NCBI GenBank assembly: GCA_965235115.1
Contig: OZ249446.1
Coordinates: forward strand, 6,882,001 to 6,946,000
From: Laetmonice hystrix
Lineage: Eukaryota
Length of the DNA: 64,000 nt
Direction of reading: 5' to 3'
Made by a program: the position numbers. Numbering within the stretch: the stretch's first letter is position 1; every line of letters starts with the position of its first letter. Positions 9,001 through 39,000 of this stretch are shown piece after piece.

Positions 9001-12000
9001 CTTCTCTTCTCGCCACGTACCTGCAATTCAATTGTATACAAAGCTCCAATTAATATAATATATAGCTCATCTATCCACGTTGAAAAAAAGAAAAAACCAA
9101 CGCCTTCCTGACACCTCAATGCATACACAGAATTATATACTATGTATGTATCGATTATGTTTAGATCAAACCCATCATTATAATGATAAAGACAAATACA
9201 CATACAGCTTCAGATATTCCAATACTATATGAAGCACACCACATGACGATCTCTAGTGAATTCAAATAAACACCAAAGCTAAATCTTCACACCTTATTCC
9301 ATTAAATCCAACAGTTTTACCACCAAACTTTACCTAAATGCCTAAGAAATCACTAACTTCTAATTCCTAGTCAATTCCTTTGTACCTCACAGTTACTCAG
9401 ATGCAGTCTTCAATAAAGCGTTCTACTCAGAATGTAACTTGCCATAACAGAAAGAACCAAATGTAAAGCTGCAGAGTATCTGACTGGAATCTAATGCCAC
9501 TCATCTGCTACTGATAACAACGACCATGCAGTACAAGTGTTAAAAACTTGCAAGGCGAGGTGGTTGTCTGCACTTCTTGAGTTGATGGTGCTGCCGTTTC
9601 GCATGCCTGTGTGAGAACCCCATCAAGAATGCCTTCAAGTTCCTGGAAATTTGGCGACGTAAAGTAATTCTGACCTCTCATTTGAGGTGGCGACGAAATG
9701 GCTCTCAGTTCCTCCTCATCAATGGAATCAGTAATGCCTATGGCAACGACATTAGCTCCGTCCCTTTGAAGGTCACGTGCAACTGGAACAGTCCGGTCTC
9801 TGTCAAAAGTGGACCTACCATCGGTGATAACAATGGCAATATTGGGGTAATTTGGACGGTCTCCATTGTTGACATTAAAAAGCTCACTGCGTGCAATGTA
9901 GAGACCACCCGACGTGTTGGTATTGGCCCCTGGATAACCAATGCCCAAAAAGGCTTGGCTCAAGCTGACAGCATCCCTATAAGTGTCCAGGCCAAAGACA
10001 AGTCGCCCAGTGTCGCTGAATACTACAGCACCAACTCGATTGGCATCATCTGACACAGACAATCTCCGTCCCACATTGGATAGAAATGTCAGCAGTAGGT
10101 CCCAGTTATCAAAAGAGCCATCTTCAGGATTGGCATCACGTATGCTTCCTGACCCGTCAATGATGAAGCCAAAATCAGCGCCCGCCTGGCACACTGCGAA
10201 GGACAACACTTTCAGGCAAATTTTCATGTGACATGGAATAGAGGGCATGCAAATCTCTACTGAATTCACAGAAAACAAAATAGCTACGTCTTCATTTTCC
10301 AATTTAGTAGACAAATCCCATCAATCTACCATCCAATTGTGCCTCTCAATTAATCTTGACAAATCACTAACTTCTAATTCCTACTCAATTCCTTTGTACC
10401 TCACAGTTACTCAGATGCAGTCTTCAATAAAGCGTTCTACTCAGAATGTAACTTGCCATAACAGAAAGAACCAAATGTAAAGCTGCAGAGTATCTGACTG
10501 GAATCTAATGCCACTCATCTGCTACTGATAACAACGACCATGCAGTACAAGTGTTAAAAACTTGCCAGGCGAGGTGGTTGTCTGCACTTCTTGAGTTGAT
10601 GGTGCTGCCGTTTCGCATGCCTGTGTGAGAACCCCATCAAGAATGCCTTCAAGTTCCTGGAAATTTGGCGACGTAAAGTAATTCTGACCTCTCATTTGAG
10701 GTGGCGACGAAATGGCTCTCAGTTCCTCCTCATCAATGGAATCAGTAATGCCTATGGCAACGACATTAGCTCCGTCCCTTTGAAGGTCACGTGCAACTGG
10801 AACAGTCCGGTCTCTGTCAAAAGTGGACCTACCATCGGTGATAACAATGGCAATATTGGGGTAATTTGGACGGTCTCCATTGTTGACATTAAAAAGCTCA
10901 CTGCGTGCAATGTAGAGACCACCCGACGTGTTGGTATTGGCCCCTGGATAACCAATGCCCAAAAAGGCTTGGCTCAAGCTGACAGCATCCCTATAAGTGT
11001 CCAGGCCAAAGACAAGTCGCCCAGTGTCGCTGAAGACTACAGCACCAACTCGATTGGCATCATCTGACACAGACAACCTCCGTCCCACATTGGATAGAAA
11101 TGTCAGCAGTAGGTCCCAGTTATCAAAAGAGCCATCTTCAGGATTGGCATCACGTATGCTTCCTGACCCGTCAATGATGAAGCCAAAATCAGCGCCCGCC
11201 TGGCACACTGCGAAGGACGACACTTTCAGGCAAATTTTCATGTGACATGGAATAGAGGGCATGCAAATCTCTACTGAATTCACAGAAAACAAAATAGCTA
11301 CGTCTTCATTTGCCAATTTGGTAGACAAATCCCAATCAATCTACCATCCAATTGTGCCTCTCAATTAATCTTGACAAATCACTAACTTCTAATTCCTACT
11401 CAATTCCTTTGTACCTCACAGTTACTCGGATGCAGTCTTCAATAAAGCGTTCTACTCAGAATGTAACTTGCCATAACAGAAAGAACCAAATGTAAAGCTG
11501 CAGAGTATCTGACTGGAATCTACTGCCACTCATCTGCTACTGATAACAACGACCATGCAGTACAAGTGTTAAAAACTTGCCAGGCGAGGTGGTTGTCTGC
11601 ACTTCTTGAGTTGATGGTGCTGCCGTTTCGCATGCCTGTGTGAGAACCCCATCAAGAATGCCTTCAAGTTCCTGGAAATTTGGCGACGTAAAGTAATTCT
11701 GACCTCTCATTTGAGGTGGCGACGAAATGGCTCTCAGTTCCTCCTCATCAATGGAATCAGTAATGCCTATGGCAACGACATTAGCTCCGTCCCTTTGAAG
11801 GTCACGTGCAACTGGAACAGTCCGGTCTCTGTCAAAAGTGGACCTACCATCGGTGATAACAATGGCAATATTGGGGTAATTTGGACGGTCTCCATTGTTG
11901 ACATTAAAAAGCTCACTGCGTGCAATGTAGAGACCACCCGACGTGTTGGTATTGGCCCCTGGATAACCAATGCCCAAAAAGGCTTGGCTCAAGCTGACAG

Positions 12001-36000: not shown

Positions 36001-39000
36001 CCCATCAAGAATGCCTTCAAGTTCATGGAAATTTGGCGACGTAAAGTAATTCTGACCTCTCATTTGAGGTGGCGACGAAATGGCTCTCAGTTCCTCCTCA
36101 TCAATGGAATCAGTAATGCCTATGGCAACGACATTAGCTCCGTCCCTTTGAAGGTCACGTGCAACTGGAACAGTCCGGTCTCTGTCAAAGGTGGACCTAC
36201 CATCGGTGATAACAATGGCAATATTGGGGTAATTTGGACGGTCTCCATTGTTGACATTAAAAAGCTCACTGCGTGCAATGTAGAGACCACCCGACGTGTT
36301 GGTATTGGCCCCTGGATAACCAATGCCCAAAAAGGCTTGGCTCAAGCTGACAGCATCCCTATAAGTGTCCAGGCCAAAGACAAGTCGCCCAGTGTCGCTG
36401 AAGACTACAGCACCAACTCGATTGGCATCATCTGACACAGACAACCTCCGTCCCACATTGGATAGAAATGTCAGCAGTAGGTCCCAGTTATCAAAAGAGC
36501 CATCTTCAGGATTGGCATCACGTATGCTTCCTGACCCGTCAATGATGAAGCCAAAATCAGCGCCTGCCTGGCACACTGCGAAGGACGACAGTTTCAGGCA
36601 ATTTTTCATTACAAAATATCAGTTTGGTAAAGAAATCTTTATGCGTCACTCCTCTTTTATTTCATAATTTAAAGTTAGGAACATCGCAATTCAATGCCAC
36701 CCTGCCTGGTTTTCCTACGATATATTAACCGTGTCTAATGGTTTCGGTTATAAATGGTGTAATAAACTGATAATCCTTTTCAACTTCTAATTAAATTTAA
36801 TACTATTTAAAACTTCTATCTACTATTTAGAAAAAGAGATGCACTTGCTATTATGCCATTCAGGAGGCAATGACGAGAAGAGATTATAGCCATGTATGTA
36901 GTATGAACTTGCCCAGCGATGGTGTTGTCATTAACTGTTCTGTCCTTGTCTTTAGCTGTTCTGATGGTGGTGGTGCCAGTTCACATGCCTCCATGAAAAC
37001 ACCGTCGAGAACGACTTCTAATTCTTGGAAACTGGGTGATATAAAAAAATTCTGGTCTCTAACATGAGGTGGCGAAGAAATGGCCCTCAGCTCTTCCTCA
37101 TCAATGGAATTAGTAATGCCAATTACAAGTATGATAACGCCATCCTTCTGAAGGTCAAGTGCAACTAACACCGTCTTTTGAATGTCAAGGGTAGATCTTC
37201 CTGTAGTTATTACAATGGCAATATTTGGGTAATGTGGCCTGTCACCACTGCTCATATTAAAGAGCTGACTGCGTGCAATATAAAGCCCACCAGATGTGTT
37301 GGTGTTGGCCCCTGGATAACCAATGCCCAAAAAGGCTTGACTCAGGCTGGCAGGATCCCTATATCTATTCAGGCCGAAGACAAGTTGCCCAGTGTCGCTG
37401 AATACTACAGCACCAACTCGATTGGCATCATCTGACACAGACAACCTCCATCCCACATTGGATAGAGCTGTCAACAATAGGTTCCAGTTATCAGAAGACC
37501 CATCTTCATTTGTCGTATCTCGTATGCTTTCTGACCCATCGATGATAAAGCCAAAATCAGCCGCTGTCTGGCACACTAAGAATGGAAAGGTTGTGAGAGT
37601 TACGATAACGTTGGTAGTAAACCTAGAGCTACAATCTATGGCTTTTCATGCCCTCTAATAACATAACTGATCAAAACTTGCCTGGAAATGTGGTTTTCTG
37701 AAGACGCTGCGTTGAATCCGAGGTTTCACATGCCTGTATGAGAACCCTATCAAGAATGCCTTCAAGTTCCTGGAAATTTGGCGACGTAAAGTAATTCTGA
37801 CCTCTCATTTGAGGTGGCGACGAAATGGCCCTTAGTTCCTCCTCATCAATGGAATCAGTAATGCCTATGGCAACGACATTAGCTCCGTCCCTTTGAAGGT
37901 CACGTGCAACTGGAACAGTCCGGTCTCTGTCAAAGGTGGACCTACCATCGGTGATAACAATGGCAATATTGGGGTAATTTGGACGGTCTCCATTGTTGAC
38001 ATTAAAAAGCTCACTGCGTGCAATGTAGAGACCACCCGACGTGTTGGTATTGGCCCCTGGATAACCAATGCCCAAAAAGGCTTGGCTCAAGCTGACGGCA
38101 TCCCTATAAGTGTCCAGGCCAAAGACAAGTCGCCCCGTGTCGCTGAATACTACAGCACCAATTTGATTGGCATCATCTGACACAGACAACCTCCGTCCCA
38201 CATTGGATAGAAATGTCAGCAGTAGGTCCCAGTTATCAAAAGAGCCATCTTCTGGATTGGCATCACGTATGCTTCCTGACCCGTCAATGATGAAGCCAAA
38301 ATCAGCCGCGGTCTGGCACACTGATGAGGATGGATTTATATATTAGGAATATGATTTTATAATGACCAAACTAAAGGCACTAATTTGCAATTAAACACAA
38401 TGCATGCCTACTGACGTAAAGATGACTGTAGTGTACATTCAGTGAAATATGCCATGAAAAGAAAATCTTTCTAAAAAATCAAATTATAGATTCATGCAAA
38501 TGGATACCTCATAATTGGTCTTTGAACAGCACCACAGAACAGAGCAGAAGAGAACAGTTATCCTTTTAAGAAGGAACATCGGCTTATGACACTCTTAATT
38601 GACTCACTTTAACTTTAATGACAAACTATTGCAGTTGCTCTCGACTGAAAAGATGGACAGAAACTATATGTAGGAGTTGAACGTGCATTAAAATAGTTGT
38701 ATTTTTAAACTTGCCGAGTTCTGGAGTTATGTCTACTTTCATTGTTGACGGTGTCATCTGACATGCCTGAATGATAATCCCATCAAGAATGGCATCCAGT
38801 TGTTGGAAACTCGGGGATGTAAAGAAGTTCTGTCCTTTTATTTGGGGCGACGATGAAATGGCTTTCAACTCATCCTCGTCAATGGAATCAGTAACACCTA
38901 CTGCGATGATATTAACTCCATCCCTTTGAAGATCACTGGCGATATTAACCGTCTTGTCTGAGTCAATATTCGATTTTCCATCGGTGATTACAATGGCAAC

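What the first reader, a model, noticed from the sequence alone, without database searches (positions are those of the whole stretch)
9347..36610. 27-copy, 1015-bp exon-plus-intron array: a coding VNTR of whole protein domains
Seen: exon and intron are both nearly identical between copies. Recurrent exon SNPs are synonymous (GTA/GTC near 10018 and equivalents; CTT/TTG Leu in copies 22-25), indels occur only in introns (1 bp near 10320, 7 bp near 34886), and amino-acid changes are few and mostly private. Inference: very recent expansion or active concerted evolution under purifying selection. Copy number, and so protein length in 214-aa steps, is likely polymorphic between individuals.
Basis: partly seen in the sequence, partly recalled or inferred. 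Interest (0 to 1): 0.65.

Follow-up and report, generated by a model that had tools for sequence, protein, structure and literature searches.

The report
Tandem array of VWA-domain exons
A stretch of 27 almost identical exon-plus-intron units, each encoding one complete von Willebrand A adhesion domain, sits inside a giant invertebrate-type gene that holds at least 56 such domain exons.

Summary
Window 9347-36609 is a 1015-bp tandem repeat of 26.9 units, 98.7-100% identical. It contains 27 open 642-bp exons separated by introns of 373 bp (one of 372, one of 366).

The gene is on the minus strand. Each exon encodes one von Willebrand A (VWA) domain with an intact metal-binding MIDAS motif, two flanking cysteines and a Thr/Pro-rich linker. 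All exons are phase 1-1, so any copy number stays in frame.

The array is only the middle of a larger system. The window holds 56 VWA exons (about 11,800 codons), including a 1452-bp array at lower coordinates and a two-exon 2283-bp array at higher coordinates. Fifty-five of the 56 exons end in the rare donor N|GCAAGT, which implies GC-AG introns.

Silent diversity within the array is 1.4%, against dS 0.13 to the nearest outside copy. Haplotypes are mosaic, with a 5-unit higher-order block. Unnamed related genomes carry the same module types, homogenised separately. This fits recent unequal-crossover expansion with concerted evolution of a selected domain (dN/dS 0.14-0.27 between arrays).

Copy-number polymorphism, splicing and assembly accuracy could not be tested. 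The array is a new member of a known kind (an exon-intron coding macrosatellite in a multi-VWA matrix or adhesion protein). I do not take the contig for human.

The parts
9347..36609 (-). Array B: 1015-bp unit x 26.9, containing 27 VWA exons. Their + coordinates are 9552-10193, 10566-11207, 11581-12222, then every 1015 bp up to 33911-34552, then 34919-35560 and 35934-36575.
15641..16282 (-). Example exon of array B: 642 bp, phase 1-1. It encodes one VWA domain (MIDAS D12, S14, S16, T91, D124; Cys 1 and Cys 197) plus a Thr/Ser/Pro-rich linker of about 16 residues.
15268..15640 (-). Example intron of array B: 373 bp, donor G|GCAAGT (GC-AG type), acceptor a pyrimidine tract followed by CAG. Its first 205 nt equal the start of the intron that follows the last B exon. 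Its last 34 nt equal the end of the intron that precedes the first B exon.
36913..37575 (-). Exon T4: single VWA exon just upstream (in gene order) of array B. It is 74% identical in protein to B, and the MIDAS Asp is replaced (the TDG motif reads TTG).
37682..38320 (-). Exon T3: single VWA exon, 94% protein and about 97% DNA identity to B exons. Its flanking introns do not align with the B intron.
38715..39353 (-). Exon T2: single VWA exon, 70% protein identity to B. It is the first exon after the 2.5-kb spacer.
39354..41910 (.). Spacer without a VWA exon. It contains poly-G and poly-C runs, a 178-codon ORF with no Pfam match, and AATAAA at 41753-41758 on the minus strand. It is either intergenic or a long intron.
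41911..42534 (-). T1: a VWA ORF that ends in a stop codon (41911-41913) 7 residues after the C-terminal Cys and has no in-phase donor. It is probably the last coding exon of the upstream gene, or an alternative terminal exon.
42869..64000 (-). Array C: 2283-bp unit of two different VWA exons (C1 609 bp, C2 621 bp) plus two introns, at least 9.25 units at 97.6-99.3% identity. It runs off the window.
3763..8745 (-). Array A: 1452-bp unit x 3.4 at 98.3-99.7% identity, with 4 VWA exons of 633 bp (8127-8759, 6674-7306, 5223-5855, 3770-4402).
976..2743 (-). Two further A-type VWA exons (2111-2743 and 976-1590), about 95% identical to the A-array exons over the exon only.

Best explanation
Window 9347-36609 is a real intragenic tandem amplification inside a giant minus-strand gene for an extracellular protein built as a chain of VWA domains.

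How the unit is built. The repeat unit consists of about 34 nt of upstream intron, one 642-bp exon, and the start of the downstream intron. The exon encodes one complete VWA domain with an intact metal-ion-dependent adhesion site, a pair of cysteines at its two ends, and a short Thr/Pro-rich linker. The exon is symmetric (phase 1-1) and its length is a multiple of three. The units are about 99% identical, introns included. Misaligned recombination between units can therefore add or delete whole domains without breaking the reading frame or the splice sites. The same recombination keeps the copies alike (concerted evolution).

What the product probably is. The likely product is a very long, multivalent 'beads-on-a-string' matrix or adhesive protein. 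Its closest described analogues are the VWA arm of collagen VI alpha-3 and the VWA-only matrix proteins of molluscs. In such a protein, the number of identical MIDAS domains sets both length and avidity.

Shown versus inferred. Shown here: the array, the exon structure, the domain identity, the fold and MIDAS residues, the recent age, the mosaic haplotypes, long-term purifying selection on the domain, and separately homogenised arrays of the same module types in other genomes. Inferred: use of the GC donors, inclusion of all exons in the mRNA, secretion, ligand, tissue, and copy-number variation.
For: Array: lag-1015 identity is 0.92, and there are 27 units at 98.7-100% identity.

Exons: 27 of 27 are open and share the same acceptor and donor context.

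Domain: Pfam VWA E = 5e-32 for the B exon, and 1e-31 to 5e-40 for 7 other exon types. The AlphaFold2 model has pLDDT 88 and pTM 0.86. The best PDB fold matches are the integrin alpha-1 I domain, mussel PTMP1 and collagen VI alpha-3 N5, with TM-scores of 0.78-0.81 normalised to the query. By sequence, the best PDB matches are collagen VI alpha-3 and PTMP1. MIDAS residues are present in 27 of 27 B copies, and a MIDAS-like pattern in 54 of the 55 exons tested.

Unit origin: the two ends of the B intron match the two introns that flank the array.

Age: pS is 0.0138 and pN 0.0022 within B, intron pi is 0.0082 and exon pi 0.0051. This compares with dS 0.13 to T3 and 0.65-0.78 to T4 and T2.

Exchange between units: units 10-12 and 15-17 share identical informative-site haplotypes. 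Mean distance is lowest at a separation of 5 units (5.14, against 5.5-6.4 at other separations). All four gametes occur in 16 of 136 site pairs.

Long-term function: dN/dS is 0.14-0.27 between exon types, with dS saturated for many pairs.

Other genomes: unnamed ENA contigs carry clusters of A-like (17), B-like (12), C2-like (9) and C1-like (9) sequences. Mean identity within the three clusters measured (A-, B- and C2-like) is 96.7-98.3% (the C1-like cluster was not measured), but only 87%, 73% and 79% to this window's A, B and C2. In the tree each groups with its module type.

Linker spacing: the predicted exon junction matches the spacing in a two-domain homologue, P0119.
Against: No RNA evidence was available, so exon inclusion and use of the GC donors are predictions.

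No signal peptide or N-terminus was found. The search of 39354-41900 gave no convincing first exon.

No reads were available, so the count of 27 rests on the assembly alone.

Open frames within the array are weak evidence of function on their own. With only 21 variable exon sites, a stop codon would often be absent by chance (my estimate, not from a call).

The selection test rests on 19 events and assumes each variable site arose once.

The organism is not identified. The only taxonomic lead is that the nearest ESM Atlas clusters are mostly molluscan where the phylum is known (2 of 64 and 17 of 59 members).

The cross-species comparison is at protein level only, and the clusters are bounded at 90% identity by construction.
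Confidence: 0.75

Rival explanations
1. Assembly artefact. The array exists, but its copy number and the arrangement of variants were produced by the assembler, through over-expansion, collapse, or a mixture of two haplotypes.
For: Arrays of 1-kb units at 99% identity are hard to assemble. The mosaic sharing of variants could also arise from chimeric joins. One of the two indels is a single base.
Against: The copies differ by 21 exon sites and 18 intron substitution columns, which form structured, repeated haplotypes rather than random noise. These include a 5-unit block repeated in register. There is no N or gap in the window. Two other arrays in the window, and the clusters in other assemblies, show the same design. 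None of this proves the number 27.
Confidence: 0.12
2. Alternative-exon cluster. The repeated exons are not all included together. They are cassette or mutually exclusive exons, and the uniformly weak GC donors allow regulated skipping, so the protein is much shorter than the sum of the exons.
For: 55 of 55 predicted donors are GC rather than GT. In human and mouse, GC-AG introns make up about 0.8% of junctions and are linked to alternative splicing (PMC7242645, abstract and passages). Because the exons are phase 1-1, any subset is in frame.
Against: 18 of 27 B exons encode the same protein, so choosing among them would give no diversity. Apart from position +2, the donor matches the consensus (GCAAGT), as strong GC donors do. 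Domains kept under purifying selection in three arrays suggest that many are used. No RNA data exist either way.
Confidence: 0.1
3. Decaying or silent gene. The array is a recent amplification inside a gene that is no longer expressed, and the open frames only reflect its youth.
For: Within the array there are too few mutations for stop codons to be expected. No promoter, first exon or transcript evidence was found.
Against: 56 of 56 VWA ORFs in the window are open, although exon types differ by 26-50% in protein among those compared, with saturated dS and dN/dS of 0.14-0.27. Splice motifs are intact at 55 of 55 junctions. Within B, non-synonymous changes are under-represented and mostly private. 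Orthologous module types are kept in other genomes.
Confidence: 0.05

Closest known systems
Collagen VI alpha-3 chain, N-terminal VWA array (PDB 9han, 4igi/4ihk, 6snk)
   Same: It is a tandem string of VWA domains in an extracellular matrix protein, and it is the top PDB sequence match and among the top fold matches. The 'beads-on-a-string' idea for tandem VWA domains comes from the start of the abstract of PMC3919171, seen only in search listings. That COL6A3 has one VWA domain per exon and alternatively spliced N-terminal VWA exons is recalled, not tested.
   Different: Per-domain scores against this chain are only 24-29 bits, and vertebrate collagen VI alpha-5/6 chains are 27-31% identical. 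Collagen VI has about a dozen diverged domains, not arrays of near-identical ones. No Gly-X-Y run of 6 or more triplets occurs in any frame of the window.
Mussel proximal thread matrix protein 1 (PTMP1, PDB 4cn8/4cn9/4cnb)
   Same: It is a VWA-only secreted matrix protein of a mollusc with an occupied MIDAS site. It is the best per-domain PDB sequence match (90 bits for one domain; 206 bits for two with the profile) and a top fold match (TM 0.81).
   Different: It has two VWA domains, not dozens, and shares about 24% identity in the structural alignment. Collagen binding by PTMP1 is recalled, not seen in a call.
Molluscan VWA-containing matrix proteins (VWAPs, BMSP/Pif)
   Same: They are VWA proteins without a triple helix, belong to expanded families in bivalves, and have proposed roles as cross-linking matrix components (PMC5597905, passages). 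BMSP has four tandem VWA domains (PMC11291548, passages).
   Different: The described members have 1-4 VWA domains plus chitin-binding or other domains. No such domain is seen in this window. The passages read describe no exon-intron array.
Exon-intron coding macrosatellites such as the LPA kringle IV-2 repeat (recalled, no call)
   Same: The tandem unit holds whole exon(s) plus intron(s), copies are near-identical including introns, each unit adds one domain in frame, and expansion is by unequal recombination.
   Different: The LPA unit is about 5.5 kb with two exons and a kringle domain, and its copy-number polymorphism is documented. Here the unit is 1 kb with one exon and a VWA domain, polymorphism is untested, and three separate arrays lie side by side.
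[quoted passage not shown]
   Same: Repeat units are more alike within a protein than between species, there are signs of recombination, and unit number changes at a high rate.
   Different: That survey calls the phenomenon rare. Its search for 'VWA' gave 0 occurrences.

Membership tests
VWA domain (Pfam PF00092) | Match to the family profile above the curated cut-off | tested here: met
   112 bits against a cut-off of 23.8 for the B exon, and 111-138 bits for 7 other exon types
VWA domain (Pfam PF00092) | Alpha/beta Rossmann-like fold of the integrin I-domain type | tested here: met
   The AF2 model has pLDDT 88 with alternating strands and helices. Foldseek gives probability 1.00 and target-normalised TM-scores of 0.84-0.91 to the single-domain chains among the top hits, the integrin alpha-1 I domain and collagen VI N5.
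VWA domain (Pfam PF00092) | MIDAS residues D-x-S-x-S, T, D | tested here: met
   Present in 27 of 27 B copies, and a MIDAS-like pattern in 54 of 55 exons tested (T4 lacks the Asp). Metal binding itself was not tested.
Collagen VI chain | Collagen triple-helical Gly-X-Y region | tested here: not met
   No run of 6 or more G-X-Y triplets in any of six frames of the window. One could lie outside the window.
Collagen VI chain | Orthology-level sequence similarity | tested here: not met
   Named vertebrate collagen VI alpha-5/6 chains are 27-31% identical.
Secreted VWA-only matrix proteins (PTMP1 / molluscan VWAP type) | VWA domains as the only globular module, no triple helix | tested here: met
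   All 56 long minus-strand coding ORFs in the window are VWA. This holds within the window only.
Secreted VWA-only matrix proteins (PTMP1 / molluscan VWAP type) | Signal peptide and secretion | tested here: inconclusive
   No convincing signal-peptide exon in 39354-41900. The true 5' end may lie elsewhere.
Secreted VWA-only matrix proteins (PTMP1 / molluscan VWAP type) | Binding to collagen or another matrix partner | not testable with these tools
   Needs a binding assay.
Exon-intron coding macrosatellite (LPA KIV-2 type) | Tandem unit contains whole exon(s) and intron(s), with high identity in both | tested here: met
   Exon pi 0.0051 and intron pi 0.0082; units are 98.7-100% identical.
Exon-intron coding macrosatellite (LPA KIV-2 type) | Each unit adds an in-frame whole domain | tested here: met
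   The exon is 642 bp, phase 1-1, and encodes one VWA domain plus linker.
Exon-intron coding macrosatellite (LPA KIV-2 type) | Copy number varies between individuals | not testable with these tools
   No reads, second haplotype or population data were available.
Mutually exclusive exon cluster (Dscam type) | Tandem homologous exons of equal length and phase | tested here: met
Mutually exclusive exon cluster (Dscam type) | Alternative exons differ so as to give distinct isoforms | tested here: not met
   18 of 27 B exons encode identical protein, and 10 distinct sequences differ by 1-2 residues.
Mutually exclusive exon cluster (Dscam type) | Only one exon of the cluster per transcript | not testable with these tools
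   Needs full-length cDNA.

The most novel reading that the evidence does not exclude
The locus encodes a length-tunable adhesive 'rope' of more than 50 VWA domains. Every module keeps the same sub-optimal GC donor, which has been conserved across module types whose silent sites are saturated, and also in other genomes. Under this reading the GC donors are maintained by selection because they permit graded or stochastic skipping of symmetric domain exons. Protein length would then be set at two levels: heritably, by copy number in three independently homogenised arrays, and physiologically, by splicing.
Probability: 0.15. Interest if true: 0.75.

Novelty: new member of a known kind. Interest (0 to 1): 0.5.

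Why it matters
If the assembly is right, this is one of the largest runs of a single folded adhesion domain in one locus: at least 56 VWA exons and about 11,800 codons in 64 kb.

It is also a clean natural example of how symmetric one-domain exons allow a protein to grow by unequal recombination. Three arrays of different ages lie side by side, so the steps from single exon to young array to older array can be read in one window.

The uniform GC-AG introns give a testable link between weak donors and repeated cassette exons.

For annotation, such loci are usually broken up or collapsed, so gene models and domain counts here should not be trusted without long reads and full-length cDNA.

Tried and rejected
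- TRF found nothing because its longest period is 500. Lag analysis and blastn replaced it.
- Organism: none of the 112 'near' hits that come from this family carries an organism name, and among the 26 longer hits only the distant ones do (an annelid protein at 34%, vertebrate collagen VI chains at 27-32%). Cluster look-ups gave no names. The only lead is 'Mollusca' for the nearest ESM Atlas clusters, so the taxon stays open. I did not try to trace unnamed records.
- Human origin was rejected. The best named vertebrate matches are 27-31% identical, and the closest relatives are unnamed invertebrate-like contigs.
- A search for a signal-peptide first exon in the spacer gave one 18-codon hydrophobic ORF at 40059 that has no usable in-phase donor. 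It was rejected as unconvincing.
- The plus-strand 155-codon ORF in every unit and the 178-codon spacer ORF have no Pfam match. I read them as antisense or chance frames.
- Rfam gave 0 matches at gathering score in the window.
- GT donors as an alternative to the GC donors were considered. In B the next in-phase GT lies 30 nt downstream in a poor context, and it is not conserved in arrays A and C (read from the output). GCAAGT is present at 55 of 55 exon ends.
- Five literature searches found no description of a VWA exon-intron array. The library is partial and supplements were closed, so this is weak evidence of absence.
No DNA of relatives could therefore be compared.
- The search of protein representatives, complex prediction and the phage, plasmid and E. 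coli collections were not used because they do not bear on this question.

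
Full report
**1. The observation**

The window has no N. Self-identity at a lag of exactly 1015 bases is 0.92 over 9-37 kb, against 0.23-0.29 at the 29 other lags tested.

A blastn search with one unit (15001-16015) finds 26 full-length copies and two partial ones. They abut without a gap from 9347 to 36609 at 98.7-100% identity. Tandem Repeats Finder reported nothing only because its longest period is 500.

The array has 26.9 units and contains 27 exons.

**2. Anatomy of a unit**

The coding strand is minus. Each unit carries one 642-bp exon that is open in a single frame. 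All 27 exons have the same acceptor (a pyrimidine tract followed by CAG) and the same donor context.

The exon begins with the last two bases of a split codon and ends with the first base of the next one. It is therefore phase 1-1, and its length is a multiple of three. Any number of copies keeps the frame.

The donor is G|GCAAGT, which is a GC-AG intron rather than a GT-AG intron. Of the 26 introns, 24 are 373 bp. One is 372 bp (1-bp deletion at about 10320) and one is 366 bp (7-bp deletion at about 34885).

The first 205 nt of the B intron equal the start of the intron that follows the last B exon. Its last 34 nt equal the end of the intron that precedes the first B exon. The unit was therefore cut out of one progenitor exon together with pieces of both flanking introns. 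This is the expected footprint of a tandem duplication.

**3. What the exon encodes**

The exon is a von Willebrand factor type A (VWA) domain, with Pfam PF00092 at E = 5e-32.

An AlphaFold2 model built on a 19-sequence alignment has pLDDT 88 and pTM 0.86. Only the last 12 residues (the linker) are disordered. Its best matches among solved structures are the collagen-binding integrin alpha-1 I domain, mussel proximal thread matrix protein 1 and collagen VI alpha-3 N5. By sequence, the best PDB matches are collagen VI alpha-3 and PTMP1.

The MIDAS residues (D12, S14, S16, T91, D124) are present in 27 of 27 copies, and each copy has exactly two cysteines, at residues 1 and 197. The last roughly 16 residues are rich in Thr, Ser and Pro.

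I searched and folded single exons only. I made no joined multi-exon model, so nothing here rests on a spliced protein.

**4. Variation among the 27 copies**

- Twenty-one of 642 exon sites vary. Nine are non-synonymous changes: seven private, and two shared by two copies each.
- Nine are single synonymous changes.
- One is the double change CTT>TTG (Leu) in copies 22-25.
- One change affects the last base of the first copy in + order.
- All five changes carried by four or more copies are synonymous.
- Eighteen of 27 copies encode the identical protein.
- In the intron, 18 of 373 columns carry substitutions and there are two indels. No exon has an indel.

Mean pairwise difference is 0.51% in exons and 0.82% in introns. 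Pairwise pS is 0.0138 and pN 0.0022, a ratio of 0.16.

Counting events, 9 non-synonymous of 19 is fewer than the roughly 75% expected without selection (binomial P = 0.009). This is real but thin evidence, and it assumes each site changed once.

**5. History of the array**

Variants are shared in a mosaic.
- Units 10, 11 and 12 have the same informative-site haplotypes as units 15, 16 and 17.
- Mean distance between units is lowest at a separation of five units.
- Units 24 and 25 are alike, and unit 22 differs from them at three informative sites.
- All four allele combinations occur at 16 of 136 pairs of informative sites.

This pattern fits repeated unequal exchange, including a multi-unit step. 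It does not look like random noise.

The nearest copy outside the array is exon T3 (37682-38320), at dS 0.13. T4 and T2 are at 0.65 and 0.78. The amplification is therefore much younger than the duplications that made its neighbours.

T3 is about 97% identical to B over the exon only. Its introns do not align with the B intron. This points to exon-limited gene conversion or to intron turnover.

**6. The surroundings**

The array is the middle of a much larger system. The window holds 56 long minus-strand ORFs with the D-x-S-x-S motif, and all are VWA where tested.

In gene order they are:
- Array C: 42869 to the window end, a 2283-bp unit with two different VWA exons, at least 9.25 units at 97.6-99.3% identity.
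- Exon T1.
- A 2.5-kb spacer.
- Exons T2, T3 and T4.
- Array B.
- Array A: 3763-8745, a 1452-bp unit, 3.4 units.
- Two more A-type exons.

Together these come to about 11,800 codons. Exon types differ by 26-50% in protein among those compared (T3, the copy nearest to array B, is only 6% from it). For pairs of different types, dS is 0.6 or more and often saturated, and dN/dS is 0.14-0.27. The domain has therefore been under purifying selection for a long time.

No Gly-X-Y run and no other domain is present in the window, and no Rfam family matches.

**7. GC-AG introns throughout**

All 55 predicted donors are N|GCAAGT in phase 1. The plus strand has a single GCAAGT in 64 kb.

The motif survives between exon types whose introns share no other similarity. 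In related genomes the ORFs that read through the exon end carry Gly-Lys, Cys-Lys or Ser-Lys at the same place, which is what xGC-AAG would encode. That last point is inferred from protein only.

In human and mouse protein-coding genes, GC-AG junctions make up about 0.8% of all junctions and are linked to alternative splicing (PMC7242645, abstract and passages). Whether these donors are used, and whether exons are skipped, needs RNA data.

**8. One gene or two**

T1 (41911-42534) ends in a stop codon seven residues after its C-terminal cysteine and has no in-phase donor. An AATAAA lies about 155 nt downstream of that stop codon, at 41753-41758.

Its closest relative in another genome, P0191 (66% identical), also stops eight residues after that cysteine.

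T1 is therefore probably a true terminal coding exon. Array C may belong to an upstream gene, or to a short isoform. I found no convincing signal-peptide exon between T1 and T2, so this stays open. It does not change the reading of array B.

**9. Relatives**

None of the close relatives carries a name; only the distant longer hits do.

Two unnamed ENA contigs (548,820 and 45,488 bp) carry clusters of 17 A-like, 12 B-like, 9 C2-like and 9 C1-like sequences plus one T1-like sequence. Mean identity within the A-, B- and C2-like clusters is 96.7-98.3%. The clusters are bounded at 90% by construction, and the C1-like cluster was not measured. Identity to this window's A, B and C2 is 87%, 73% and 79%.

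I built a tree of 19 of the 55 window exons (T1 left out) and 38 of the 112 hits. Each of these proteins groups with its module type.

Copies are thus more alike within a genome than between genomes for the same module type. That is the signature of concerted evolution, or of separate recent bursts.

Named vertebrate collagen VI alpha-5/6 chains are only 27-31% identical, so I do not take the contig for human or vertebrate. The nearest ESM Atlas clusters are molluscan where a phylum is known. This is a lead, not an identification.

**10. Comparison with what is known**

Multi-VWA matrix proteins are well known. Collagen VI alpha-3 has about a dozen VWA domains. Mussel PTMP1 has two. Molluscan BMSP has four in tandem (PMC11291548, passages). 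Bivalve genomes carry expanded VWA-protein families with proposed matrix roles (PMC5597905, passages).

Exon-intron coding repeats such as the LPA kringle IV-2 array are also well known (recalled, no call). Concerted evolution of domain repeats has been surveyed and called rare (PMC5100051, passages).

Five full-text searches found no description of a VWA exon-intron array. The library is partial and supplements were closed, including the VWA-protein tables of PMC5597905.

I therefore file this as a new member of a known kind. It is notable for its scale and for its uniform GC-AG introns.

**11. What stays unchecked**

The following could not be checked:
- assembly accuracy and copy-number polymorphism (no reads);
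- splicing and expression (no RNA);
- both ends of the gene (outside the window);
- the organism;

Noticed in passing
window 42869-64000 (-): A second array: a 2283-bp unit holding two different VWA exons (609 and 621 bp) and two introns, at least 9.25 units at 97.6-99.3% identity. It runs off the window end.
   Followed up: partly
window 3763-8745 (-), plus 2111-2743 and 976-1590: A third array: a 1452-bp unit x 3.4 with 633-bp VWA exons and a poly-proline linker. Two older A-type exons follow it and are similar over the exon only (about 95%).
   Followed up: partly
all 55 predicted donor sites, e.g. 15635-15640, 8121-8126, 54200-54205 (-): Every VWA exon except T1 ends in a phase-1 N|GCAAGT donor, so the whole locus appears to use GC-AG introns. 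The read-through residues of relatives (G/C/S followed by K) suggest the same in other genomes.
   Followed up: partly
window 41911-42534 (-), AATAAA at 41753-41758: The VWA exon T1 ends in a stop codon with no in-phase donor. The closest relative, P0191, stops at the same place. This may be a gene boundary or an alternative terminal exon between array C and the rest.
   Followed up: partly
window 37682-38320 (-): Exon T3 is about 97% identical to the B exons (dS 0.13), but its flanking introns (394 and 106 bp) do not align with the B intron. This suggests exon-limited gene conversion or intron turnover.
   Followed up: partly
window 18686-22372 and 23761-27447: Units 10-12 and 15-17 (in + order) carry identical informative-site haplotypes. 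This is a 5-unit higher-order duplication inside array B.
   Followed up: partly
about 110 nt into the B introns, e.g. 15531 (-): A second GCAAGT motif lies about 110 nt downstream of the donor in 25 of the 27 B-unit introns (including the partial one). It is lost in two of them through an A>C change. A further non-donor copy recurs in 9 units of array C. Its meaning is unknown.
   Followed up: no
window 36913-37575 (-): Exon T4 has DGSES in place of DGSGS and has lost the MIDAS Asp (the TDG motif reads TTG). It may be a non-metal-binding domain, yet its dN/dS against B is 0.24.
   Followed up: no
window 39354-41910: The spacer contains runs of 11-14 G or C, GA-rich simple sequence, and a 178-codon ORF (39560-40093, minus) with no Pfam match. 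It looks like repeat debris, and the window has no Rfam match.
   Followed up: partly
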